Of a stretch of DNA of 10,082 nt, positions 452 through 10,082 are shown piece by piece. This stretch comes from a virus. Taxonomy: Duplodnaviria > Heunggongvirae > Uroviricota > Caudoviricetes. The notes beneath the pieces are model-generated. The model was not told the DNA's origin and did not search any database. It worked only from the letters and a program-made list of their open reading frames with translations. A program made the translations under genes and the position numbers. Every line of letters begins with the position of its first letter. Within the stretch, counting starts at the first letter, position 1. Location: the IMG/VR virus record IMGVR_UViG_2778261087_000010; one strand, given 5' to 3'.

Positions 452-766
452 TCACTCTGGGAAAAATGACTGAATGTTCTTTCTTATCTCGCTAGTGCTG
501 TGATTGCTTCCGGTGGCAGGTGCGCTGGCATATTTACTCTGAATATTATTCTTGGCTGGCGCAGCTCCTTCTTCCGGCCATTCGGCCAACCAATAGGCAA
601 ATGCAGGATCGCGTTTTATGAGTGCCAGCCCGGCCAGAAAGGCCGCGCGTTGCGCGCGGCTGCGTTCAGAGGCTGGCAGGCTGTCGAGGTAATTACACGC
701 CTCCCGTTCACTATTGACGGCGACTGGCTTCAGATAGAAACTTATCCGTCTGGTTGGTGTCGTCAT
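452..766 (-). CDS. parR: ParR/StbB-like ribbon-helix-helix centromere-binding protein (104 aa)
   Basis: Internal ATG at 764-766 preceded by AGGAG; the parM stop TAA (771-773) lies inside this RBS. Translation (RRISFYLKP...EREACNYLDSLPASERSRAQRAAFLAGLALIKRDP) matches, from memory, plasmid R1 ParR (RTIAFKLNP...LDSIPQGERSRLNRAALTAGLALYRQDP). The 149-aa ORF in the track (452-901) would overlap parM by 130 nt and is rejected. Confidence 0.75.
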   Translation of the reverse strand: MTTPTRRISFYLKPVAVNSEREACNYLDSLPASERSRAQRAAFLAGLALIKRDPAFAYWLAEWPEEGAAPAKNNIQSKYASAPATGSNHSTSEIRKNIQSFFPE

Positions 767-770
767 TGGT

Positions 771-1730
771 TTACTCCTTGTCCATTGCGTACAGCCCATT
801 AACCAGAGCAAACTGTGGCACCCCGTCCGCGATGAAAGTCGCATTAACTCCGCAGGCTTCGCGGATAGCGGGTGCCACAATCTCCGCCCCACCACCGACA
901 ACCATCACCCGCCCGTAACCCGAAAAACCCGCCAGCGCGCGGATCACGCGTTGTTTCAGTGTTTCTTCCTTTTCACGAATAACCGCCATCAGGCTGGCGT
1001 AATGCGCGTCATTGTGGATGTGCTGGCGCAGCCAGGCTTCATCATGGCGATGTTCGATAATGGTATTGGCGATGTGGTGACTGGTGCGCATACCGTTAGT
1101 GGCCATCACCGACAGTACGGCATCGGCCATCAGAGAAACGCCTACGTGTGGATCGCAAAACACCTGGCTGATACCTGCCAGTTGCCCCTGAACCTTTGCC
1201 ACATCCAGCGTGGTTCCGCCCAAATCCACAATCAGCAGGGATTCAAACGGACTCATGTCAGCCAGTGCCTTAAAGCCAGCCGGAATGGATTCAGGCATAA
1301 CCCGTACGTTACGGATAGTGAATGCTTCGCCGTTCTGGTACTCCACCGGGCGCATAACGTTCGCTTTTTTGCGGTTGATGTTGGTCATGTCCGGCTGTGC
1401 GTTTGTGTCGAAATACTCGCTCAGTGGCAGGGTGACAACCACATCCACCTCCTGTGGCGTGATGCCTGATTTGACCAGCGCGTGATGAATGGCAATGACA
1501 TTCACATCGCTGTACTGGTATTGCGTGTCGGTCGTCTGGACAAAGCGATCGCTGACCGGATCAAAACCATAGCGCACGCCATCAAGCATGTAGTTTGCGG
1601 GCTGCGTGCCACCGAACGGCGCAGACCATTCCGACTTGAAGCTGTTCGGGCTGATGGCGTTGCGGCGTTCGCCGTTCTCAGTCCATGCCAGCTTGATGTT
1701 GGTGGAGCCGTCATCGATACAAATTTTCAT
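771..1730 (-). CDS. parM: ParM/StbA actin-like plasmid segregation ATPase (319 aa)
   Basis: N-terminus MKICIDDGSTNIKLAW plus blocks ISPNSFK, QYSDVNV.AIHHAL, RPVEYQNGEAFTIRNVRVMPESIPAG, LLIVDLGGTTLD and MVVGGGAE align by eye with R1 ParM. RBS AAGGAAAAG upstream of the ATG at 1728-1730. Confidence 0.9.
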   Translation of the reverse strand: MKICIDDGSTNIKLAWTENGERRNAISPNSFKSEWSAPFGGTQPANYMLDGVRYGFDPVSDRFVQTTDTQYQYSDVNVIAIHHALVKSGITPQEVDVVVTLPLSEYFDTNAQPDMTNINRKKANVMRPVEYQNGEAFTIRNVRVMPESIPAGFKALADMSPFESLLIVDLGGTTLDVAKVQGQLAGISQVFCDPHVGVSLMADAVLSVMATNGMRTSHHIANTIIEHRHDEAWLRQHIHNDAHYASLMAVIREKEETLKQRVIRALAGFSGYGRVMVVGGGAEIVAPAIREACGVNATFIADGVPQFALVNGLYAMDKE

Positions 1731-1759: not shown

Positions 1760-1870
1760 CGTTTACGGGATTCTGAAATCCCGTTTTTGCCTGTTTTATG
1801 CGCGCTTCATATATCGCGGCGCGTTTTTTGCTCATTTACGGGATTTGTGAATCCCGTTTCTGTCTGTTTT
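1760..1870. promoter_or_regulatory. Candidate parC-like centromere / parM promoter region with two direct copies of a hairpin repeat
   Basis: ACGGGATT-ctga-AATCCCGT at 1765-1784 and ACGGGATT-tgtg-AATCCCGT at 1838-1857, each in the context TTTACGGGATT...AATCCCGTTT followed by a T-run, 73 bp apart. The first lies between the gpA stop and parM start; the second overlaps the last ~20 codons of gpA. Confidence 0.4.
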
Positions 1871-4647
1871 TTGTTTCCACTGGTCAGGCCACCCCGCAGC
1901 AGGTCTGCTTTGCGGCGGGCGCGTTCAGTGGTTTCACTGATTCTCTGTGCGTGCTCTGCGTCGCGGATGGCGCGCAGCATGTCAGAAAGCACGGTAACGG
2001 GTGTTTTCATGGTGTTCTGGTCCTGCTGAAGTGTGGATGCCAGGCGTGCGGCGGCTTCGGGGTCTGATGCCCCCAGCTGTTCCAGATAGCTGGCGACCGG
2101 GTTATGGCGGATCTCCGTGCTGCTTACGCCGTGGTTACGGCTCAGGCGCTGCCAGAGCTGCGTGATCCGGCTGTCCGGGCGGGTATCCGGTTTGCGTACA
2201 ATTTCAAATCCCTGCGGTGCAATGATGCTGCCGTCAACGTACAGACTGCCGCCCCGTAACAGGTGCTGCATCTGCTGTTCACCAATATGCAGGCCGAGAG
2301 ATTCAGCAGACTCCCGCCATTCTTTAGCGAGTAATTCGTGGTTATCAGGCAAAGGCCGCTGCTGTTTGCGGCTCTGTGTCCAGCTCTGCATTTCATCACT
2401 GCTGTTTTTTGCCTGTTTGTCACGAAGCGAACGCATCAGCGCCCGGCGTTCGTGCCGTTTCAGTGAGCGCATCCATTCGTTCACTTCAACGCCGTCAGGG
2501 AGCTGCGGCCACGGTGCTGGCCGTTCTTCCGGCTGTTCTGTCCCGTTGTTGTCCGTTTCCTGTACACGGGGACAGTTATTGCCACGAGTCCAAGGGGCGG
2601 CAGGGCCGCCCTGAAGGTCAAAACCATTTTCGTGGGCGCTGCCTTCCTGTTCCGGTTTACGTCTTACCAGCTTCCAGTTATCCGGGTGCGTGCACACACG
2701 GGAGGATTCCCCGATGAGTGGTGACCAGATCCCGTAAATCTGTACACTCTGTTCGCCGTAATCGTTCAGCTCATCGGCGAGGTCGTAGGCGGTGCGAATC
2801 AGGTAGTCTTTGCGTGGAACAAGTACGCCGCCCTGTTTCTCTATGTAGGTGGCAAAACATCCGGCATCAGCGGCAGCGAGTACCGCATCCATTGCGTCAT
2901 CCTTCAGCCGTTGCGGGCCTTCCGGGTTGCGTGCCATCTGGCTGGCAAGGCGGCGGAGTTCACGCCACACCTGACGGGAGGGGATGCCAAAGAACTGGAA
3001 CTGGCGGACCCGGTGAAGGCGTGCCCAACCGATGGCGCGCTCCACGCTCTCGGCCATTGATTTTCCGGTTTCGTGGTCAACGCGTGGTTTGCCCGTTTTC
3101 GGGTCGATGCCATCCACGGCGCGGCTGTCCAGGTTTTTCCCGATGTAGGTCGCGATATAGCTGGTTGGTGTGCCTTTTGAGCCGTCGACATACTCCACTT
3201 TAAAGCGCGGAGTAATATCATTGCCCAGCTCGTGGCGGTCTTCCTGAATGGCAATATCGCGGGTGATGGCCACGATGCTGTCGATTTCTTCCGGATGAGC
3301 AAAGACCATCATATGCCAGTGCACGGTGCCGTCATGGTGAGGCTCCACCGTGCGGATGCCATACCAGCGCAGGCCGTCGCGGTTCAGTTTTTTGCGGACC
3401 GCCGCAAAAAACGTGTTAACCAGGTAATCGCTGGAGTCGCGCATGGTGGCCCCGTTCCATTTGGGGTTCGGATGACCGTTCTCCGTTGTTGCGTGGTATT
3501 TTGACGGGCAGGTGACAGTCAGAAACACCGCTCTGTCGCCACGGGCTTCGGCCAGAAGTTCCAGTCCCTTCATGGTGGCCATCATTTCTGCCTTACGGTG
3601 AACCGGGTTACTTACTCCCGCGTAATACACTGTCTCGAGATCAATCGTGAACCCGTCTTCGTTTTCCAGCATGAAACTTTTCAGGAAATCGCGTGTTTTC
3701 TCGCGCTGTGCGCGAAACTCGCTTAACGCGTCCTGGCTCAGATAGGGCGATGTTTTTCTGGAAACCAGACAGGCGGCGCGGAGTTGTTCTTCTCTCCACT
3801 CGCAACGTAACAGCCACAGTTTGCGTTTCCACCATTCCGCACAGGTCAGGCGAAGGATTGCGCCCGGCAGCAGCTCCGTGTCCGGTTCGTTCCTCCGGTC
3901 TTTATCTGTTGTCAGTGCGTCATAATGTGGAGGCATGATGTGCAGGTGTAACGCCATGCGGGCCAGCATCTGATACGCCTTCAGCGTTACATCCATGGTC
4001 AGTTCGCCATCGGTCGCGCCAAAGCCATCGCAGAGTTTTTCGAAGGTGCTGCTGAACATCGCCGCCGTCATGGTGGCCAGCGTCTGTATCTGGTGTTTGT
4101 TGAGCTGCGGCAGGTAAAGCAAATCGTCCAGGCGTTCGCGTCCGGCAAGGGAGCGATAACCCGGTGTCAGCCAGCGTCCGTCAGTGCGATCCAGACGTTC
4201 GAATATTTTGCGCAGGGTTCCGCGTGCATAGCGTTCCGCCTGCCAGCTCTTTTTGCCTTTCCGGCGATCAGCTTCCTGTTTTTTGCGCAGGAAGGAGAGG
4301 TGGCGACTCAGAGGTTCTCGCAGATAAACGGGAAGCGCCTTCAGTGTGGCAAAGGCACGGGCTACCGGGTCTTGTTCTGTTGCCCGGCGCTTACTGATGA
4401 TGCTCTGTGCCAGCTTTTCACGCTGTCCGGCTTCCTCAAGGGATGCCATGAGTTTTTTACCCATGGCGGATTGTGCGAAAAAGGCTTCTTCCTTCGCTTC
4501 CTGTTCTTCCTGTGCCCTTTTGTCCGCCTCAAGGTAGTAACGGATGGCGCGTTGCAGGTCGGTTTCAGTTTCCTGCCTGCGCTCCGTAAATCTGGCCGGA
4601 TCAATAGCTGGTCGTGGTTCATTCCAGCTCCATGCAAACGCACTCAT
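1807..4647 (-). CDS. Rolling-circle replication initiator, phage P2 gene A (GpA) family HUH endonuclease (946 aa)
   Basis: HUH motif in GTVHWHMMVFAHPE and paired catalytic tyrosines in TPTSYIATYIGKN (Y-x3-Y), the arrangement of the P2 A / phiX174 gpA family. Start taken as ATG 4645-4647, which overlaps the upstream ORF stop as ATGA; the GTG at 4672-4674 used by the track has no SD. Confidence 0.88.
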   Translation of the reverse strand: MSAFAWSWNEPRPAIDPARFTERRQETETDLQRAIRYYLEADKRAQEEQEAKEEAFFAQSAMGKKLMASLEEAGQREKLAQSIISKRRATEQDPVARAFATLKALPVYLREPLSRHLSFLRKKQEADRRKGKKSWQAERYARGTLRKIFERLDRTDGRWLTPGYRSLAGRERLDDLLYLPQLNKHQIQTLATMTAAMFSSTFEKLCDGFGATDGELTMDVTLKAYQMLARMALHLHIMPPHYDALTTDKDRRNEPDTELLPGAILRLTCAEWWKRKLWLLRCEWREEQLRAACLVSRKTSPYLSQDALSEFRAQREKTRDFLKSFMLENEDGFTIDLETVYYAGVSNPVHRKAEMMATMKGLELLAEARGDRAVFLTVTCPSKYHATTENGHPNPKWNGATMRDSSDYLVNTFFAAVRKKLNRDGLRWYGIRTVEPHHDGTVHWHMMVFAHPEEIDSIVAITRDIAIQEDRHELGNDITPRFKVEYVDGSKGTPTSYIATYIGKNLDSRAVDGIDPKTGKPRVDHETGKSMAESVERAIGWARLHRVRQFQFFGIPSRQVWRELRRLASQMARNPEGPQRLKDDAMDAVLAAADAGCFATYIEKQGGVLVPRKDYLIRTAYDLADELNDYGEQSVQIYGIWSPLIGESSRVCTHPDNWKLVRRKPEQEGSAHENGFDLQGGPAAPWTRGNNCPRVQETDNNGTEQPEERPAPWPQLPDGVEVNEWMRSLKRHERRALMRSLRDKQAKNSSDEMQSWTQSRKQQRPLPDNHELLAKEWRESAESLGLHIGEQQMQHLLRGGSLYVDGSIIAPQGFEIVRKPDTRPDSRITQLWQRLSRNHGVSSTEIRHNPVASYLEQLGASDPEAAARLASTLQQDQNTMKTPVTVLSDMLRAIRDAEHAQRISETTERARRKADLLRGGLTSGNKKQTETGFTNPVNEQKTRRDI

Positions 4648-5033
4648 GGCTGGTATCCCGTCACGCGCTGCCACTCCTGCGAGAAGAGGGCGGAAAGGCG
4701 GTTAAATTCAGCGGTGTATTCACTCAGCGAGGCACACCCGCCAGCAGTGCGATGCGCCAGCATTGCTGCAAATACGGAGGCCGGGGAGTCGTAATACGCC
4801 AGCAGTGATTCGCCGTGCGGTGTCAGGCAGTGCAACGCCAGTCCGTGTGGTGTGAAGTCCACGCGGTAGCAGTCGTCTACTGTGAAATAAAGGGTGTCTG
4901 CATTCTCCGGTTTTGTGGTGCGTGCTCTGTTGTCACGACCACGGATGTAGAGATCAAATAACCCCTGAAGAACGGGAGCCAGACGGGTGTCCTGTGTGCG
5001 CACCCATCTTGTGAAGTCATGAGTGTCAATCAT
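4644..5033 (-). CDS. Hypothetical protein (129 aa), translationally coupled to the replication initiator
   Basis: ORF with ATG at 5031-5033 and modest AGAGAA RBS; stop TGA 4644-4646 overlaps the gpA start. No recognised motif. Confidence 0.55.
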   Translation of the reverse strand: MIDTHDFTRWVRTQDTRLAPVLQGLFDLYIRGRDNRARTTKPENADTLYFTVDDCYRVDFTPHGLALHCLTPHGESLLAYYDSPASVFAAMLAHRTAGGCASLSEYTAEFNRLSALFSQEWQRVTGYQP

Positions 5034-5105
5034 GCTGCAATTCTCTTTACTACAGATGTGCGAAGGCCTCCCGCCGCAAGGTGCAGGAAAGGCCCGGAAC
5101 AGGAA

Positions 5106-5336
5106 TTAATGGAGTTTGTTTTGCTGCTGGATGAGCTGCTGAAGCTCGCGCAGATCATCCGCCAGATAGCTGAAAACAGCGGATGAATAGAGGTTTGAAA
5201 GTTCGCAGCTACGCTCATGCAGCATATTGATGTGCATGATTTTAGCGACGCGGAATGCGCGGGAAAGTCTGCGGTTGATTTCAGTCTGGATGTGACGACA
5301 CGCAGCGTATGCGCGGTGCTGTTTGCGGTTTGCCAT
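5106..5336 (-). CDS. Hypothetical small basic protein (76 aa)
   Basis: ATG 5334-5336 with good RBS AAAGAGG about 8 nt upstream; first gene after the terminator and the 19-bp palindrome. No zinc-finger Cys pattern, so not called Ogr-like. Confidence 0.5.
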   Translation of the reverse strand: MANRKQHRAYAACRHIQTEINRRLSRAFRVAKIMHINMLHERSCELSNLYSSAVFSYLADDLRELQQLIQQQNKLH

Positions 5337-5354
5337 GGTGTGGCCTCTTTGGTT

Positions 5355-5373
5355 GTAAGTTTTGAAAACTTAC
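5355..5373. promoter_or_regulatory. Perfect 19-bp palindrome (9-1-9), candidate operator upstream of the 5106-5336 gene
   Basis: GTAAGTTTT-G-AAAACTTAC read directly from the sequence, about 20 nt upstream of the RBS of the 76-aa ORF. It does not fit the LexA box pattern CTGT-N8-ACAG. Confidence 0.4.
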
Positions 5374-5514
5374 CATCCAGAGGTTCCAAGCTCGGGGTGG
5401 TGAGACGTACAGGGTTGGAACTACCGGCAACCAAAGAACCCGGCCCGACCGAAGTCGGCCCCATACGCCCCACCATAATTCGTGTGCGAAAAAGACGTGG
5501 CGATACGGTACGCA

Positions 5515-5536
5515 CAAAAAAACCGCTGGCGCGGTT
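5515..5536 (-). terminator. Candidate rho-independent terminator closing the upstream small-gene block
   Basis: Minus strand reads AACCGC-GCCA-GCGGTT followed by TTTTT (6-bp stem, 4-nt loop, T-run), about 120 nt after the stop of the 5659-5958 gene. Confidence 0.5.
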
Positions 5537-5658
5537 GTGCGCTTTGGTTGTCAGCGGGGTTCCAATCCCGGCACCCGTTTTATGAGGTGCAGCGGAAATG
5601 TAACCTGACTGATTGCGGCATGGCAAGCGGTTTTTTTGTGTGTGCATGCTCTGGTTTC

Positions 5659-5958
5659 TTACTGGTTCAGAAAAAAATCAAAAACCTTGTCAATGCGTTG
5701 CAGCAGCTCTTGCTGTATTGCTTCCGGCGTTTCCGGTTCACCAGGTGCCCCCAGCGTTGCGCAGAAATCAGCGATTTCATGATGGAGCGTCAGGCGAATG
5801 GCAGGAGCCGTGGTTCTGGCGTGCTCCAGCTCATCCAGCAATGCCAGCACAGCAGACGGCGAGAGCATTGCGCGAAATGCCAGTAATTTTTGAGGCGTTG
5901 CCATTCGTTGCAGGGCAAATGCCAGTTCGCGTAGCTTCTGGTGGTTGATGGTGCTCAT
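5659..5958 (-). CDS. Hypothetical protein (99 aa)
   Basis: ORF with ATG 5956-5958 overlapping the upstream stop (ATGA); stop TAA 5659-5661; followed by the terminator. No recognised motif. Confidence 0.55.
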   Translation of the reverse strand: MSTINHQKLRELAFALQRMATPQKLLAFRAMLSPSAVLALLDELEHARTTAPAIRLTLHHEIADFCATLGAPGEPETPEAIQQELLQRIDKVFDFFLNQ

Positions 5959-6221
5959 GTTCTGGCTTCCTTCAGTAGCTGGTTAAACATGTGAGTAAGT
6001 GGATTGCTACACCCGAACGGCATCGGGTTTACGTGGTAAGAAGCCTGGCCTCCAGTTTTGCGAGCGCGACCACCTGTGCTGCGGTTTGTTCTGATGACTA
6101 AGCCGCCGCGCCAAAGTTGGCGTAACTCAGCATTAATGGCTGTGGTTGGAGTATTCAGTGCTGCGGCGATCTCTCCGCCGCTACACCCCGGATGAGTAGC
6201 GATGTAGTCCAGAATGGTCAT
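5955..6221 (-). CDS. Hypothetical protein (88 aa), possible winged-helix DNA-binding protein
   Basis: ATG 6219-6221 overlaps the upstream stop (ATGA). N-terminal MTILDYIATHPGCSGGEIAAALNTPTTAINAELRQLWRGGLV looks like a helix-turn-helix plus wing; the functional call is weak. Confidence 0.5.
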   Translation of the reverse strand: MTILDYIATHPGCSGGEIAAALNTPTTAINAELRQLWRGGLVIRTNRSTGGRARKTGGQASYHVNPMPFGCSNPLTHMFNQLLKEART

Positions 6222-6421
6222 CTGCGTGGCTCCTGTACTTGTCGGATAAGATTCACCCGCGCCACGTTGGTGGCGCAGAAATAAGTGCCGTCAGTGAGGT
6301 AGATGTGGTGTGCATCCTTTTCCGAACGATGTTTGTCGATAGTGGTAATCAGGCGTTCGTCGACCTCGTATTCGCGCCCTCTGGAGGTAAAGCGAACGAC
6401 GGAAAAATGCTTAATTGCCAT
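6218..6421 (-). CDS. Hypothetical protein (67 aa)
   Basis: ATG 6419-6421 with RBS AAGGGGG 5 nt upstream; stop overlaps the next start (ATGA). Confidence 0.5.
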   Translation of the reverse strand: MAIKHFSVVRFTSRGREYEVDERLITTIDKHRSEKDAHHIYLTDGTYFCATNVARVNLIRQVQEPRR

Positions 6422-6444
6422 TGCGCCCCCTTTGTCCAGTACCC

Positions 6445-6861
6445 CTATGCGTTAAATACGGCACGTTGCGCGTCATCAATGAATACAGCTTGAGAGCGTT
6501 CTATCAGGCGGAGATTTGTCAGAAGCTCTGACTCTTTTGTGTGGTAAGGCGTTATCAGGTATTTGCCGTGCAGTTCGGCAATAATGGTGTATTGCAGCAT
6601 CATTGCTGAACCAAGAATATAAATGCAGCGTCCAATGCTGGACGGATTCATGGCTGCAACTGTTGACTGTGTTTTAAGAGTGTCGATTTCTTTGCTCTGT
6701 TCCTCAATAATTTTGGCTGCGTCAGCGGTGATTTTTGCAATGGTCAGTGCGTGAAGTGCTGCCATATGTTGGCTACGCTTCACGGCATCTTTAGCCATTT
6801 CATCTTCCGCTTCTGATATTTTTTTTAATGTGTCGATAATGCCTTCTTCTTTTGCGTTCAT
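6445..6861 (-). CDS. Hypothetical protein (138 aa), AT-rich cargo gene
   Basis: ATG 6859-6861 with GGAG about 8 nt upstream. Sampled 60-nt windows are ~38% GC here versus ~63% inside gpA. Predicted helical N-terminus and a hydrophobic stretch IGRCIYILGSAMMLQYTIIAEL. Confidence 0.55.
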   Translation of the reverse strand: MNAKEEGIIDTLKKISEAEDEMAKDAVKRSQHMAALHALTIAKITADAAKIIEEQSKEIDTLKTQSTVAAMNPSSIGRCIYILGSAMMLQYTIIAELHGKYLITPYHTKESELLTNLRLIERSQAVFIDDAQRAVFNA

Positions 6862-6953
6862 TTTATATCTCCGTTATTTACATGTGCGAATACCTCCGCG
6901 AATGCGGATAGTTTTCAGGTTTTCGGGTTTAATCTGGTGTTTTGTTTAAGCTG

Positions 6954-7067
6954 TTATTCGTCAGTGAAAAAGCGTTCAATCTTTTTTACTGAATGAATAA
7001 TTCGCATAATCCCAATGGCGCAGGCCACCGAAATAATCAGAACAAGCCATGAGATAAATATACTCAT
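6954..7067 (-). CDS. Small single-helix membrane peptide (37 aa), not in the supplied ORF track
   Basis: Hand translation of the minus strand gives MSIFISWLVLIISVACAIGIMRIIHSVKKIERFFTDE, stop TAA 6954-6956. Its ATG 7065-7067 overlaps the stop TGA 7064-7066 of the upstream gene (ATGA). Hydrophobic core with a charged tail. Confidence 0.4.
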   Translation of the reverse strand: MSIFISWLVLIISVACAIGIMRIIHSVKKIERFFTDE

Positions 7068-7306
7068 GCGATATTCCCCAGCTTATACGGTTCAATATGT
7101 TCCCCGCATTCTGCGGCACAGATCAGCTCGGAAAGTTCGTTAAGTGCATCCAGATCATCAGCGTAAAAAGCGACGTCATACAAACTCCGGATTGCCCTGG
7201 TCAATGAGTCACGGGCTGCACGTTCAGCATGAGCGCCTGATGCACTTAAGCGAAAATAAAATCGTTCAAGTGCTTTGTTAATGAGAGTTTTATATTCTTT
7301 GCCCAT
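7064..7306 (-). CDS. Hypothetical protein (80 aa)
   Basis: Internal ATG 7304-7306 (MGKEYKTLINKALERF...) with AAGGG upstream; the longer track ORF from 7357 would overlap the preceding gene. Confidence 0.5.
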   Translation of the reverse strand: MGKEYKTLINKALERFYFRLSASGAHAERAARDSLTRAIRSLYDVAFYADDLDALNELSELICAAECGEHIEPYKLGNIA

Positions 7307-7317
7307 CGCAGCGCCCT

Positions 7318-7605
7318 TTAATCTGCTTTCTGAATTCCAGCTTCTGAATCCATACAAATAATTTCGATATATGGTTCATCGCCATTAACCTGACGTGCCT
7401 TTTCAGCTTCGCTAATGATTTCTCGTACGGTCTGGTACGGAAGTTCCACAAGCAGTCGCGTGCCGTTCAGATAAACGTAAGTGGCTTCGTCGGCTCCGTT
7501 TTTACCCGCCGGAGTCACTCCGTCAATAGCGGATGCACGTAATAACAGTTCACCGCGAAAATCAATAAAACGGATAAATACACCTTGTGCATGGTCTTTG
7601 GTCAT
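7318..7605 (-). CDS. Hypothetical protein (95 aa)
   Basis: Internal ATG 7603-7605 (MTKDHAQGVFIRF...) preceded by AGGTG at 5-nt spacing; the track start at 7719 would overlap the upstream gene by ~100 nt. Confidence 0.5.
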   Translation of the reverse strand: MTKDHAQGVFIRFIDFRGELLLRASAIDGVTPAGKNGADEATYVYLNGTRLLVELPYQTVREIISEAEKARQVNGDEPYIEIICMDSEAGIQKAD

Positions 7606-7615
7606 AAAGCACCTG

Positions 7616-7954
7616 TTATAAATCAGCCTGTTTAATAAAACTTTGCCCGCGAAGCAGACGATCAACCGTGCGAAGTGCTTCGTATAATGTGAAATCCTGC
7701 CCGAACTGATTGTCGCCACAGCTCAATGCAAAAATGCGGTTTCCGGTAAACGGATTGCGTGGGCATTTGTGGATCACGATTCCAGCTTTCTCAATCAGCC
7801 AGGCGTGCTCGCCGATTTGTTTTACTGGGTAGCCATCCGGCGTTGCGTGTGTATCACTCAGGCTGTAGCGGATGTTGCTGCGTGATGCACTGGTAGTGAA
7901 ACGGTTAGCGTGGCGTTCTGTTCCGGTACGAAAATTACGGCGTTGCTTCAGCAT
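7616..7954 (-). CDS. Hypothetical protein (112 aa)
   Basis: ATG 7952-7954, GAGGTG upstream, 14-bp gap after the Cox-like gene stop; second gene of the leftward operon. Confidence 0.55.
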   Translation of the reverse strand: MLKQRRNFRTGTERHANRFTTSASRSNIRYSLSDTHATPDGYPVKQIGEHAWLIEKAGIVIHKCPRNPFTGNRIFALSCGDNQFGQDFTLYEALRTVDRLLRGQSFIKQADL

Positions 7955-7968
7955 AAAATGACACCTCG

Positions 7969-8247
7969 TTATTTTGTCATCTGCACGTATTTTTCTGCGC
8001 TCCTGATTGTTTTCAGGAAAAGAGCGAAGAGATTTACTGTGCGTCTTGAGTTCTTTTCATCCTGGTTGATGGGAATTGAACCTCTGTCAGCCTGTCTTTT
8101 CACTGTGTTAACAGCTTGGTTGGTACGTTTTGCGTAATCTTTCAGGCTTTCTTCAAGTACTGGTAACCCATGCTCATCGCGGTAGGGATAGAACGCTGCT
8201 AACCGCTCAAAGTCTGCCTGTTCGTGTGTGTTCAGGACTTTTGCCAT
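7969..8247 (-). CDS. Cox/Apl/excisionase-like small DNA-binding protein (92 aa), first gene of the leftward early operon
   Basis: Divergent from the repressor-like gene across the operator region, as cox/apl are in P2/186. Segment YAKRTNQAVNTVKRQADRGSIPI...RRTVNLFA resembles Xis/AlpA-type winged helices. Called on position and motif only. Confidence 0.5.
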   Translation of the reverse strand: MAKVLNTHEQADFERLAAFYPYRDEHGLPVLEESLKDYAKRTNQAVNTVKRQADRGSIPINQDEKNSRRTVNLFALFLKTIRSAEKYVQMTK

Positions 8248-8285
8248 GTGTGATAACCTGCGCTATCTGTGGTTGTTTGTGACTT

Positions 8286-8339
8286 GGTGTACTTATAAGT
8301 ACACCTTGTGCGCAAGCTTAGTGTACTTATAGGAACACT
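8286..8339. promoter_or_regulatory. Genetic-switch operator region: perfect 20-bp palindrome plus a degenerate second copy
   Basis: GGTGTACTTATAAGTACACC at 8286-8305; GTGTACTTATAGGAACAC within 8320-8339 shares the left half-site and overlaps the RBS of the repressor-like gene. Centres are about 34 bp apart, between the divergent starts at 8247 and 8344. Confidence 0.6.
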
Positions 8340-8343
8340 GTCA

Positions 8344-8652
8344 ATGCTTATCGGTGAAAAAATTAGAGTGATTCGTGAATCAGAGGATTTAACGCGCGAA
8401 GAATTTTGCGGCCTGATTGATGTGCCTATCGGCACTTTGCGTCGTTATGAAACGGGGCGGATTGAAAACATAGGGGGCGAAGTGCTTATCAAGATTGTTA
8501 ATCACCCTCGCTTTTTTAAGTACATGAATTGGCTTATGACGGGAAAAACAAATGAGGCTGCTGGGCAGATCAGTCCGTCTCTCTCCCCTGATGGGCCAAA
8601 AAGCACATCGCCTTCTCAAAAACCCCGCAAGACTGGCACACAGCCCGGCTAA
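8344..8652 (+). CDS. HTH (XRE-type) immunity repressor-like protein (102 aa), P2 C / 186 cI position
   Basis: ATG 8344-8346 with AGGAA 8 nt upstream. N-terminal helix-turn-helix signature EKIRVIRESEDLTREEFCGLIDVPIGTLRRYETG. Immediately upstream of and co-oriented with the integrase. The track GTG start at 8308 lies inside the operators and is rejected. Confidence 0.75.
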   Translation: MLIGEKIRVIRESEDLTREEFCGLIDVPIGTLRRYETGRIENIGGEVLIKIVNHPRFFKYMNWLMTGKTNEAAGQISPSLSPDGPKSTSPSQKPRKTGTQPG

Positions 8653-8701
8653 TCATGGAGCGCTGGGGGCATGGTGGTCTTGTAACGCTGGGGTTTCACG
8701 A

Positions 8702-9676
8702 ATGAGCATAAAATCAATTCCGGGAGGGTATCTTCTTGACATGCGCCCTGAGGGGCGTAAAGGCAAACGCATTCGCAAAAAATTTAAAACGAAATCGGAT
8801 GCAGTTTTATATGAGCGGTGGGTGCTGGCGCAACAGCATAACAATGAGTGGAAAGGAGACTCTATTGATCGCCGTCCTCTGTCAGTGCTTATTGACTTGT
8901 GGTGGAAATACCACGGCCAGCTAATGAAGTCAGGGCATAACACGCGCCTTAAATTGCTGCGCTTGAGTGAGGCAATGGATGACCCGTGCGTGCATAAACT
9001 TAATACAACAATGCTCACCGAGCTACGTGTGTCCAGGATAGAGCAGGGGATACAGCCCAGCACCATAAATCGAGAGATTGGGGCGTTAAGCGCGATGTTT
9101 ACCGCACTCATCTCATCCGGCCATTTTCTTAACGATAACCCCGTTCAAGGCCTTAAAGGAATGAAGGTTAACGAGCGCGAAATGGGATATCTGAGTAAGT
9201 CTGAATGTGTTCAGTTGCTGGATGCACTGGCTGAAAATCCCGATGAACGGCTGGCTGTCGAAATCCTTCTGTCGACCGGGGCGCGATGGGGCGAGGTAGC
9301 GGCACTGGAGCAGCGCCGTGTTCTTCATTGTCGAATCACTTTTTCAAAAACGAAGAACAGCAAAAACCGTACCGTTCCTATTTCTGAAAGCCTGTTTGAA
9401 AAGATCAAAATACGGGGCGGGAAACTGGTGTTTCCGACGCTGGATTATCCATTGGTTCGCGATGTCATCAAAACGGTCGCACCTGATGTTCCTGACGGCC
9501 AGGCTGTTCATGCGCTGCGCCACACCTTCGCCAGTCATTTCATGATGAACGGCGGCAATATTCTGACGCTCCAGAAAATTCTGGGGCACGCAAAGATTCA
9601 GACAACGATGATTTATGCCCATCTTGCGCCGGATTACTTGCAGGATGCGGTGAGATTTAATCCTATTGCTGGGTAA
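8702..9676 (+). CDS. int: Tyrosine recombinase / phage integrase (324 aa)
   Basis: C-terminal catalytic signature HALRHTFASHFMMNGGNILTLQKILGHAKIQTTMIYAHL (R...H-x-x-R...Y) and core-binding-like N-terminus; size near P2 Int. Start at ATG 8702 (MSIKSIPGGYLLD); the longer track ORF from 8552 overlaps the repressor gene. Confidence 0.9.
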   Translation: MSIKSIPGGYLLDMRPEGRKGKRIRKKFKTKSDAVLYERWVLAQQHNNEWKGDSIDRRPLSVLIDLWWKYHGQLMKSGHNTRLKLLRLSEAMDDPCVHKLNTTMLTELRVSRIEQGIQPSTINREIGALSAMFTALISSGHFLNDNPVQGLKGMKVNEREMGYLSKSECVQLLDALAENPDERLAVEILLSTGARWGEVAALEQRRVLHCRITFSKTKNSKNRTVPISESLFEKIKIRGGKLVFPTLDYPLVRDVIKTVAPDVPDGQAVHALRHTFASHFMMNGGNILTLQKILGHAKIQTTMIYAHLAPDYLQDAVRFNPIAG

Positions 9677-9686
9677 GGAGGATGTT

Positions 9687-10082
9687 GTGGAAAAAACAGT
9701 TAATAGCGATTTGCATTTAGGTCAGTACTGGAGAATAGACATTGTATGCGATCCAGAACTTCGAGATGAGGTTGAGCAATATTTTTCTCTACACGATGTT
9801 GGTTTTAGCAAAATTGAAGTTTTTTCCGTCGAAAATCCATATAAACTTGCTCTATTCTTTGATTTCGCGAAGAAGGGTGTGGAGGTTGCAAAAGCCATTA
9901 TGGGACTCTTAGACCGAAATGATATTGAAATAACGATGTATCGTGCTACGGACAGTAGCCCGCAGTCTGTAAAAAGCATCAAATTGCGTAAGTCTGAAGA
10001 CGTAGAGAAATGTAAAGATTTGCTTAGTACGTGTGTTGCAATTGGCGTTCAACGAAATAAGGAAAAAGAGGGGAGTGAATGA
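9687..10082 (+). CDS. Hypothetical protein (131 aa), AT-rich gene coupled to the integrase 3' end
   Basis: Integrase stop TAA 9674-9676 is followed directly by GGAGGA (9677-9682) and an in-frame GTG at 9687. Sampled window ~32% GC. Stop TGA is at the last three bases of the window. The start could instead be the TTG at 9666. Confidence 0.5.
   Translation: MEKTVNSDLHLGQYWRIDIVCDPELRDEVEQYFSLHDVGFSKIEVFSVENPYKLALFFDFAKKGVEVAKAIMGLLDRNDIEITMYRATDSSPQSVKSIKLRKSEDVEKCKDLLSTCVAIGVQRNKEKEGSE

What the first reader, a model, noticed from the sequence alone, without database searches (positions are those of the whole stretch)
6445..7605. AT-rich cargo block inside the early operon: four small genes including a coupled 37-aa membrane micro-ORF
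GC drops sharply (sampled ~38% versus ~63% in gpA) across four tightly packed ORFs of 95, 80, 37 and 138 aa with no recognisable domains. The 37-aa peptide is a single predicted transmembrane helix whose start overlaps the preceding stop. That is the architecture expected of horizontally acquired modules in temperate phages, such as superinfection exclusion, abortive infection, toxin-antitoxin or anti-defence genes. The function here is unknown, and this is the best candidate in the window for an undescribed small system.
Basis: partly seen in the sequence, partly recalled or inferred. Interest (0 to 1): 0.6.

Follow-up and report, generated by a model that had tools for sequence, protein, structure and literature searches.

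The report
Core early genes, one dispensable gene
This stretch is ordinary, uncharacterised early-operon DNA of a P88-like (P2-family) E. coli prophage: three of the four genes, including a real 37-residue membrane peptide, are fixed parts of that phage lineage, and only the 138-residue gene comes and goes.

Summary
The GC contrast is real but overstated: 43.8% against 57.1% in gpA, and the low GC continues through cox and the repressor gene.

The window is the early region of a P88-like (Xuanwuvirus) prophage. Matches to orf95, DUF4754 (orf80) and the 37-aa peptide occur in 1364 of 5426 complete E. coli genomes, about as many as the matching gpA (1374). So these three are lineage core, not cargo.

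The micro-ORF is a genuine gene. It is intact and ATGA-coupled in 94 of 95 loci, with pN/pS of about 0.2-0.3. A coupled single-TM peptide also follows a 41%-identical DUF4754 in Citrobacter relatives.

Only orf138 is dispensable. It is a promoterless, RBS-to-RBS single-gene cassette in a small slot that is empty in 50 of 93 loci and sometimes holds other genes. Its family is also old: it sits at the same position in Citrobacter.

There are no matches to defence, toxin or RNA families, and no informative fold match. Function is unknown. The context points to early lytic-cycle roles, not a lysogen-expressed defence or toxin-antitoxin module.

The parts
7318..7605 (-). orf95: acidic 95-aa early protein (phrog_3800). 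Lineage-core gene of P88-like phages.
7064..7306 (-). orf80: DUF4754 family protein, 80 aa. Very strongly conserved lineage-core early gene.
   Evidence: Pfam PF15946 E = 2.8e-54. pN/pS 0.07 over 43 distinct alleles. A 41%-identical orthologue sits at the same position in Citrobacter freundii.
6954..7067 (-). orf37: 37-aa single-pass membrane micro-protein. Its ATG overlaps the orf80 stop (ATGA). Predicted N-out/C-in, with a basic cytoplasmic tail.
   Evidence: Junction ATCGCATGAGTA. Intact in 94 of 95 loci with the same ATGA junction. Variable sites by codon position 11/6/21; pN/pS 0.32, or 0.19 for codons 1-32. KD19 maximum 2.68. A coupled 47-49-aa single-TM ORF follows DUF4754 in Citrobacter, with invariant S-W..S..I.I.R.
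6895..6908 (-). Conserved 5-bp hairpin UCCGC-AUUC-GCGGA in the 92-nt spacer after orf37. Present whether or not orf138 follows.
   Evidence: 22 distinct variants, 99.1% of cells paired, 2 of 5 pairs with compensatory double changes, 0 of 500 shuffles reach the score. The G.U wobble variants pair only on the early-mRNA strand.
6445..6861 (-). orf138: dispensable 138-aa early gene (phrog_9338). N-terminal antiparallel helical hairpin plus small C-terminal beta domain.
   Evidence: phrog_9338 E = 1.5e-81. AF2 pLDDT 79.8, helices 3-28 and 32-64, strands 79-127. Present in about 820 of 1365 E. coli genomes that carry the block and in 36 of 93 loci. pN/pS 0.52, about 1.0 at residues 25-39. Only 25 cluster representatives among 1.84 billion proteins.
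6428..6880 (-). Approximate limits of the presence/absence cassette: the orf138 RBS, the CDS and the 3' spacer up to the orf67 RBS.
   Evidence: The alignment of window, P88, P88_4B11, Shae_phiSM and 569R5 shows a clean indel running from one RBS to the next. Slot lengths cluster at about 89, 355, about 530 and 845 nt.
7616..7954 (-). Upstream neighbour in the same operon: DUF4761 protein, 112 aa.
   Evidence: Pfam PF15958 E = 1e-68. 10-nt gap to orf95. Same order in all relatives.
6218..6421 (-). Downstream neighbour and right edge of the slot: orf67 (phrog_3459).
   Evidence: Follows orf37 directly, after about 89 nt, in P88 and 50 of 93 loci.

Best explanation
The interval 6445-7605 is not one cargo block. 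It is part of the rightward-to-leftward early operon of a P88-like (Xuanwuvirus, P2-family) prophage. On the minus strand the operon reads cox - DUF4761 - orf95 - DUF4754 - orf37 - [slot] - orf67 - wHTH - Ead-like - ... - gpA.

Shown:
- orf95, DUF4754 and the 37-aa peptide are fixed, lineage-specific early genes.
- The peptide is a genuine protein-coding gene whose start is coupled to the DUF4754 stop. It is a bitopic inner-membrane peptide with a short basic cytoplasmic tail.
- orf138 fills a small variable slot between orf37 and orf67. The slot is empty in about half of the relatives, and in a few it holds an unrelated 87-aa gene or a second, 110-aa gene.
- The orf138 cassette runs from RBS to RBS and has no detectable promoter or terminator of its own.
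- The orf138 family occupies the same slot in distant Citrobacter relatives, so the empty state is most simply a deletion.

Inferred, by analogy with the P2 Pe/C switch:
- All four genes are transcribed only when the repressor is lifted, that is on infection or induction. They therefore act early in lytic growth.
- My committed guess is that DUF4754 and its co-translated membrane peptide work together at the inner membrane, either to take over a host envelope or division function or to exclude superinfecting phage during lytic growth.
- I also guess that orf138 is a fast-evolving, dispensable early accessory protein that binds a host or competitor target through its helical hairpin (host takeover or counter-defence).
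- Neither function is demonstrated.
For: Identity of the element:
- 83-96% DNA identity to Xuanwuvirus phages (P88, P88_4B11, Shae_phiSM) and 98% to E. coli prophages inserted next to pdxB.

Core status of the three genes:
- Matches to the 6954-7605 stretch occur in 1364 genomes and gpA in 1374 genomes, out of 5426 complete E. coli genomes. 1353 of those matches cover at least 80% of the stretch.
- All three genes are present in nearly all of the 94 relatives examined.
- The order is the same with different immunity regions and in Citrobacter.

One operon:
- Gaps between successive genes are 14, 10, 11, -4, 92, 23, -4 and -4 nt.
- The scan finds no more minus-strand promoter- or terminator-like sites than shuffled sequence gives.

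The micro-ORF is real:
- (conservation, third-position bias, pN/pS 0.19-0.32).
- (syntenic coupled TM peptide at 24-27% identity).
- (hydrophobicity).
- (UniRef names it 'Prophage membrane protein'; the exact sequence is on 1000 or more contigs).

orf138 is dispensable:
-.
- Loci L070 and L089 have 98.9-99.3% identical flanks but differ in slot state.

The orf138 family is old in this slot:
-.

orf138 evolves fast:
- pN/pS 0.52 against 0.07 for DUF4754.

No match to known defence systems:
- PADLOC.
Against: - No expression data are available. The claim that the operon is silent in lysogens rests on analogy with P2 (established knowledge), not on a test here.
- The consensus promoter scan is crude. 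One weak minus-strand promoter-like site (7281-7253, 9 of 12 matches) lies inside orf80 and could in principle drive orf37 on its own.
- C-terminal frameshift (45 aa) and truncated (30 aa) variants of the peptide exist, so its last residues are not essential.
- The 80 IMG/VR loci were retrieved with DUF4754 as bait, so they cannot by themselves show that DUF4754 is core. The count against gpA covers this.
Confidence: 0.65

Rival explanations
1. One reading: all four ORFs form one horizontally acquired, AT-rich cargo module (superinfection exclusion, abortive infection, toxin-antitoxin or anti-defence) dropped into the early operon.
For: GC is 13 points below gpA and GC3 is 35-42% against 63%. 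All four proteins are ORFans restricted to a few enterobacterial genera. One of them is present in some relatives and absent in others.
Against: Three of the four are present in about 99% of prophages with the same gpA and in Citrobacter relatives at 41% protein identity. The low GC extends to cox and C. The block has no own promoter or terminator. No PADLOC hit. Presence/absence affects orf138 alone, with RBS-to-RBS edges.
Confidence: 0.05
2. DUF4754 and the 37-aa peptide are a toxin-antitoxin-like or abortive pair. The hydrophobic peptide is a membrane-depolarising toxin, like Hok, Ldr, TisB or Ibs, and DUF4754 is its protein partner.
For: The peptide is under 50 aa with one TM helix and a charged tail. 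It is strictly coupled to DUF4754 and co-conserved with it over a wide divergence.
Against: No antisense RNA family or convincing antisense promoter was found. The pair is not an autonomous unit: it is embedded mid-operon between other early genes. Neither protein matches PADLOC or NCBIfam toxin models. Its position in an operon expected to be repressed in lysogens does not suit an addiction module.
Confidence: 0.1
3. orf138 (and the other slot genes) are lysogenic-conversion morons expressed from the prophage to exclude or abort other phages.
For: The slot has at least four alternative contents and changes between near-identical flanks. orf138 evolves fast, with a dN/dS peak near 1 in the hairpin turn. 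Temperate phages often keep such genes at variable loci. Rousset et al. 2022 (PMC9122126) describe such a variable defence locus in P2-like phages.
Against: No promoter or terminator flanks the cassette. It is inserted RBS to RBS in the sense orientation of the early operon. The described P2-family defence hotspot lies between gpA and gpQ, not here. No PADLOC hits for any slot gene.
Confidence: 0.12
4. The micro-ORF matters only as a translated spacer, for example to keep ribosomes on the mRNA or to tune expression downstream. The peptide itself has no function.
For: Frameshifted 45-aa and truncated 30-aa variants occur in otherwise intact prophages. The peptide is followed by a conserved hairpin-containing spacer.
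Against: pN/pS is 0.19-0.24 over the TM segment, and amino-acid changes there are conservative (I/V/L/A). The TM-plus-basic-tail design and the S-W..R motif persist at 24-27% identity in Citrobacter.
Confidence: 0.08

Closest known systems
Early operon of Escherichia phage P88 (NC_026014) gp04-gp08 and other Xuanwuvirus phages
   Same: Same genes in the same order: DUF4761 (gp04), hypothetical protein (gp05 = orf95), DUF4754 (gp06), 37-aa 'membrane protein' (gp07), gp08 (= orf67). DNA identity is 90-96% over orf95, orf80 and orf37.
   Different: P88 itself lacks orf138: gp07 is followed by gp08 after 86 nt. The immunity region and the region upstream of gpA also differ.
Non-essential early-operon ORFs of P2 (orf78, orf80-83) and 186 (fil, dhr) - comparison from established knowledge of these phages
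   Same: Small genes of unknown or accessory function lying between the cox/apl switch gene and the replication gene A, co-transcribed from the early lytic promoter.
   Different: No sequence relationship was detected. tblastn of orf95, orf37 and orf138 against 50,697 phage records hits only Xuanwuvirus-type phages. No membrane micro-protein is described in the P2 or 186 early operons, to my knowledge.
Morons (Hendrix-type autonomous accessory cassettes in temperate phages)
   Same: orf138 is a single accessory gene present in some, and absent from other, otherwise near-identical phages.
   Different: It has no own promoter or terminator and no composition shift relative to its neighbours, and it lies in sense inside an operon. 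The other three genes are not accessory at all.
Type I toxin peptides (Hok, Ldr, TisB, Ibs) and other small single-pass membrane peptides
   Same: Under 50 aa, one TM helix, short charged tail.
   Different: No antisense RNA, no own transcription unit, translationally coupled to an upstream protein gene, no family match.
P2-family defence hotspot between gpA and gpQ (Rousset et al. 2022, PMC9122126)
   Same: A variable locus in P2-like prophages of E. coli.
   Different: A different place (downstream of gpA, next to cos) and far larger cargo, with own promoters. The slot here holds 0-2 small promoterless genes with no PADLOC hits.

Membership tests
Pfam DUF4754 (PF15946) | Full-length match to the family HMM above the gathering score | tested here: met
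   orf80: 181.7 bits against a cutoff of 27, E = 2.8e-54, positions 1-80 of 80.
Core early operon of P88-like (Xuanwuvirus) phages | Same gene order DUF4761 - orf95 - DUF4754 - 37-aa peptide - orf67 upstream of a P88-type gpA | tested here: met
   Annotated regions of P88, P88_4B11, Shae_phiSM, 569R5, PhiR44_2, Chuche, EC291, H10407, TW10722 and 98E11. 94 loci tabulated.
Core early operon of P88-like (Xuanwuvirus) phages | Present wherever the lineage's replication gene is present | tested here: met
   gpA fragment: 1374 genomes and 1538 places. orf95-orf37 stretch: 1364 genomes and 1518 places. orf138 fails this test: about 815-823 genomes.
Moron / autonomous accessory cassette | Own promoter and terminator flanking the gene | tested here: not met
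   Consensus scan: 3 promoter-like sites in 3.7 kb against 4.2 expected, none upstream of orf138. No minus-strand terminator-like site after orf138 or orf37. The scan is crude.
Moron / autonomous accessory cassette | Present in some close relatives and absent from others | tested here: met
   Met for orf138 only: 36 of 93 loci; L070 against L089 with 99% identical flanks. Not met for orf95, orf80 and orf37.
Moron / autonomous accessory cassette | Base composition distinct from flanking phage genes | tested here: not met
   orf138 43.9% GC against orf80 45.7%, orf95 44.8% and cox 44.4%. Only the downstream genes are richer, at 51-57%.
Type I toxin-antitoxin | Small hydrophobic membrane peptide | tested here: met
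   37 aa, KD19 maximum 2.68.
Type I toxin-antitoxin | Cis- or trans-encoded antisense RNA and an independent toxin mRNA | tested here: not met
   No Rfam match at E <= 1 in 6200-8320. No convincing plus-strand promoter. The peptide start is coupled to the orf80 stop within a polycistronic operon.
Known anti-phage defence systems (PADLOC-DB v2) | HMM match of at least one component | tested here: not met
   No meaningful match among the ten early-operon proteins scanned; the best for orf80 is E = 0.012 and 11.4 bits. None for the alternative slot genes either.
P2-family defence hotspot (Rousset et al. 2022) | Location between gpA and gpQ, next to cos | tested here: not met
   The finding lies upstream of gpA in the early operon. 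The hotspot definition was read in PMC9122126.
Superinfection-exclusion membrane proteins (T4 Imm/Sp, HK97 gp15, P22 SieA) | Sequence or fold relationship to a characterised member | tested here: not met
   No Pfam, PHROG-with-function, NCBIfam or PDB match for orf37 or its neighbours.
Superinfection-exclusion membrane proteins (T4 Imm/Sp, HK97 gp15, P22 SieA) | Blocks DNA entry of a second phage when expressed | not testable with these tools
   Needs plaque and DNA-injection assays.

The most novel reading that the evidence does not exclude
DUF4754 and its stop-start-coupled membrane micro-protein form a previously undescribed two-part early module, conserved from Escherichia to Citrobacter P88-like phages and resident in about a quarter of complete E. 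coli genomes. On this reading the module acts at the inner membrane on induction, for example by blocking a host envelope or division protein or the entry of a second phage. The dispensable, fast-evolving orf138 family next to it would be a new counter-defence or host-takeover protein.
Probability: 0.2. Interest if true: 0.55.

Novelty: new member of a known kind. Interest (0 to 1): 0.3.

Why it matters
P88-like prophages sit in about 25% of complete E. coli genomes (1364 of 5426), yet the literature searches found no paper on the function of these early genes. Three results are useful:

- The 37-aa membrane peptide is a true, selected gene that gene callers miss in Citrobacter.
- It is always coupled to DUF4754, which gives a concrete pair to test.
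- The 'cargo' idea applies to orf138 only, so experiments can be aimed correctly: at early lytic functions, not at lysogen-expressed defence.

Otherwise this is an ordinary block of uncharacterised early phage genes.

Tried and rejected
- **Remote homology.** Pfam, PHROGs, NCBIfam and PADLOC scans of all ten early-operon proteins gave only DUF or unknown-function families. PDB sequence searches with profiles of orf138 and DUF4754, and with orf95 alone, gave nothing below E = 0.01.
- **Exhaustive profile search.** The orf138 family profile against 1.84 billion representatives returned only 25 clusters, all of the same small family. One apparent fusion (P0325) looks like a chimera with an acetyltransferase N-terminus.
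- **Structure.**
  - AFDB50 was not available.
- **Paralogy ideas.** orf95 against orf67, and orf138 against its neighbours, were rejected: hhalign probability <= 0.2%. The 87-aa alternative slot gene as a hairpin-only relative of orf138 was also rejected: probability 1.9%.
- **Antisense RNA or type I toxin-antitoxin.** No Rfam hit. The one plus-strand promoter-like site (6813-6840) scores 9 of 12, and the total number of sites is below the shuffle expectation.
- **The hairpin at 6895-6908 as a plus-strand terminator.** The scan flags it. However, the G.U wobble variants pair only on the minus-strand RNA, and the surrounding spacer has no significant fold (z = -0.45 and -0.20).
- **Literature.** Nothing was found for DUF4754, DUF4761 or the RefSeq accessions. 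Only incidental mentions of Xuanwuvirus or P88 turned up.
Full report
**What is in the sequence**

On the minus strand the window carries a tightly packed gene train:

| Gene | Coordinates | Note |
|---|---|---|
| Cox-like gene | 7969-8247 | |
| DUF4761 protein | 7616-7954 | |
| orf95 | 7318-7605 | |
| orf80 | 7064-7306 | |
| orf37 | 6954-7067 | |
| orf138 | 6445-6861 | |
| orf67 | 6218-6421 | |
| MarR-type winged-helix gene | 5955-6221 | |
| Ead-like gene | 5659-5958 | |
| C4/isrK RNA region | about 5393-5590 | Rfam matches |
| orf129 | 4644-5033 | |
| P2-type gpA | 1807-4674 | 955 aa |

- The repressor and integrase genes lie on the plus strand at 8308-9676.
- The four ORFs of the finding are therefore real and lie at the stated coordinates.
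- The 37-codon ORF starts inside the orf80 stop (ATGA, 7064-7067).
- Gaps between successive genes are 14, 10, 11, -4, 92, 23, -4 and -4 nt.
- GC of the finding is 43.8% against 57.1% for gpA.
- The low-GC zone continues into cox (44.4%) and the repressor gene (47.0%).
- 'No recognisable domains' is not quite right. orf80 is Pfam DUF4754 (E = 2.8e-54). orf95, orf80 and orf138 each match a PHROG of unknown function.

**What element this is**

- The interval is 83-96% identical to phages of the genus Xuanwuvirus (P88, P88_4B11, Citrobacter phage Shae_phiSM and others). It is up to 98% identical to prophages in E. coli chromosomes.
- In phage P88 the homologues are gp05, gp06 (DUF4754) and gp07 (a 37-aa 'membrane protein'). 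They are flanked by gp04 (DUF4761) and gp08.
- RefSeq annotates the same four CDS in E. coli EC291.

**Core or cargo?**

- Megablast of the orf95-orf37 stretch finds 1364 of 5426 complete E. coli genomes (1518 places). 1353 of those matches cover at least 80% of the stretch.
- A 2-kb piece of the matching gpA finds 1374 genomes (1538 places).
- The three genes are thus found in about as many genomes as this type of replication gene.
- They are present in the same order in prophages with quite different immunity regions (ETEC H10407, TW10722, 98E11).
- They are present in nearly all of the 94 related loci I tabulated: 12 annotated records, 80 IMG/VR contigs and 2 genome contigs.
- orf138 is different. 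Only about 815-823 genomes cover it.
- Among 93 loci the slot between orf37 and orf67 has these states:

| Slot state | Loci | Detail |
|---|---|---|
| Empty | 50 | about 89 nt |
| orf138-family gene | 36 | |
| Unrelated 87-aa gene | 6 | phrog_21900 |
| Two genes | 1 | E. albertii |

- The indel is clean and runs from one ribosome-binding site to the next.
- Loci with 98.9-99.3% identical flanks can differ in slot state (L070 against L089).

**Deeper relatives**

I looked up the contigs that encode the most divergent orf95 and orf138 homologues.

- In Citrobacter freundii and Citrobacter sp. TSA-1 the order is again DUF4761 - orf95-like - DUF4754. Here DUF4754 is only 41% identical.
- Directly after it, again with a 4-nt ATGA overlap, comes an uncalled ORF of 47-49 aa. 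It has one hydrophobic helix and a charged tail.
- That ORF is 24-27% identical to orf37 and shares the invariant S-W..S..I.I.R.
- Next come an orf138-family gene (122 or 137 aa; 45% identity over the hairpin), a 111-aa gene also seen in E. albertii, and the orf67 homologue.
- So both the micro-ORF and the orf138 family are old residents of this operon. The empty slot in many E. coli prophages is most simply a deletion.

**Is the micro-ORF a gene?**

- In 95 loci the ATGA junction and a GGGGAA/GGGAAA Shine-Dalgarno-like motif 8 nt upstream are invariant.
- The frame is intact in 94 of 95 loci. The exception is a record with many other frameshifts.
- Among 40 distinct alleles the variable sites fall 11/6/21 by codon position. 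pN/pS is 0.32, falling to 0.19 for codons 1-32 and 0.24 for the TM segment.
- The other two frames contain stops.
- Amino-acid changes are conservative (I/V/L/A/F, H/N, R/Q).
- A homopolymer slip gives a 45-aa variant in 8 loci, and phage Chuche has a 30-aa form. Both keep the TM helix.
- The Kyte-Doolittle 19-residue maximum is 2.68. The positive residues (R22, K28, K29, R32) lie C-terminal, which predicts N-out/C-in.
- I consider the gene real. Translation itself was not tested.

**The proteins**

- **DUF4754** is under very strong constraint (pN/pS 0.07).
- **orf138** folds as a long antiparallel helical hairpin (residues 3-64), a disordered linker, and a small beta domain (79-127). Only generic helical matches were found.
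  - The family is tiny: 25 cluster representatives among 1.84 billion proteins. All are from Escherichia, Shigella, Salmonella or Citrobacter.
  - It evolves quickly: pN/pS is 0.52 overall and about 1.0 around the hairpin turn.
  - E. albertii alleles carry tandem LNLSDTG repeats in the linker.
- None of the proteins, and none of the alternative slot genes, matches PADLOC, NCBIfam toxin models or any PDB sequence.

**Signals**

- The consensus scan finds no more promoter-like or terminator-like sites than shuffled sequence gives. None brackets orf138.
- Rfam finds nothing in 6200-8320.
- The 92-nt spacer after orf37 is conserved whether or not orf138 follows.
- It contains a 5-bp hairpin (6895-6908) with two independent compensatory double changes. 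99.1% of cells are paired in 22 variants.
- The wobble variants pair only on the early-mRNA strand, so I read the hairpin as an mRNA element, not as the plus-strand terminator the scan suggests. Its role is unknown.

**How it most likely works**

Shown:
- One operon.
- Three lineage-core genes.
- A selected, coupled membrane peptide.
- One dispensable, promoterless gene in a small variable slot.

Inferred from what is established for P2 (Pe is repressed by C in lysogens and cox is the first early gene):
- The four genes are made only on infection or induction.
- That fits early lytic functions better than lysogen-expressed defence, exclusion or addiction.

My committed but unproven reading:
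- DUF4754 and its co-translated peptide act together at the inner membrane early in lytic growth.
- orf138 is a rapidly evolving accessory binder of a host or competitor target.
- I put about 0.65 on the overall account. That figure rests mostly on the anatomy and evolution. The specific functions deserve far less.

**Comparison and novelty**

- The closest known thing is simply the annotated early operon of phage P88 and its relatives.
- By position it resembles the non-essential early ORFs of P2 and 186, but no sequence relationship was detected.
- It is not the P2-family defence hotspot, which lies between gpA and gpQ.
- It fails the promoter/terminator and composition tests for a moron, and the antisense-RNA test for a type I toxin-antitoxin system.
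- The sequences are all already in public databases as hypothetical proteins. The literature searches found no paper that discusses them.
- I rate it a new member of a known kind, uncharacterised early accessory genes of a temperate phage, with modest interest.

Noticed in passing
window 5393-5480 (-), 5516-5590 (-), 5106-5336 (-): Rfam C4 antisense RNA (84.4 bits) and isrK (69.5 bits) lie upstream of a 76-aa 'Derepression protein' family ORF (PF25738, E = 1.5e-6). This looks like a P1/P7 immI-like, RNA-controlled antirepressor module inside a P2-type early operon.
   Followed up: partly
window 5030-5647 (-): An open 205-aa ORF passes the Pfam Phage_ASH gathering score (34 bits, E = 4.2e-8). 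It lies on the same strand as, and spans, the C4 and isrK RNA matches, and its sequence looks unlike a normal protein. RefSeq does not call it in EC291. Either the region is dual-coding, or the protein family is built on translated RNA genes.
   Followed up: partly
window 6895-6908 (-): Conserved 5-bp hairpin UCCGC-AUUC-GCGGA in the spacer after orf37, with compensatory changes at two pairs. The G.U variants pair only on the early-mRNA strand. Function unknown.
   Followed up: yes
window 452-766 (-) and 771-1730 (-): A ParM-like segregation ATPase and a partition protein (phrog_2515) lie directly downstream of gpA. This is a plasmid-type partition module in the region that Rousset et al. 2022 describe as the P2-family defence hotspot.
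   Followed up: no
window about 8277-8296: Perfect 20-bp palindrome GGTGTACTTATAAGTACACC between the repressor gene and cox. Probably the operator of the immunity switch.
   Followed up: no
L095 4541-4690; L098 3775-3918: The Citrobacter counterparts of the micro-ORF (47-49 aa, ATGA-coupled to DUF4754) are not called as genes in the public annotations of these contigs.
   Followed up: yes
between cox and DUF4761 in L002, L003, L004, L009 (absent in the window at 7955-7968): A second small variable slot. Many relatives carry a 68-aa ORF, and sometimes two 35-aa ORFs or a 140-160-aa ORF, between cox and DUF4761. The window has only 14 nt there.
   Followed up: no
L093 (NZ_JBQPOM010000071.1, labelled Vagococcus sp. 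WN89Y): A contig of a Gram-positive genome assembly carries this Escherichia-type prophage block at 97-98% protein identity. It is probably contamination or a mislabelled assembly.
   Followed up: no
window 9666-10082 (+): A 138-aa-plus ORF of low GC (39%) starts right at the end of the integrase gene and runs off the window. It was not examined: it could be prophage-end cargo or a host gene.
   Followed up: no
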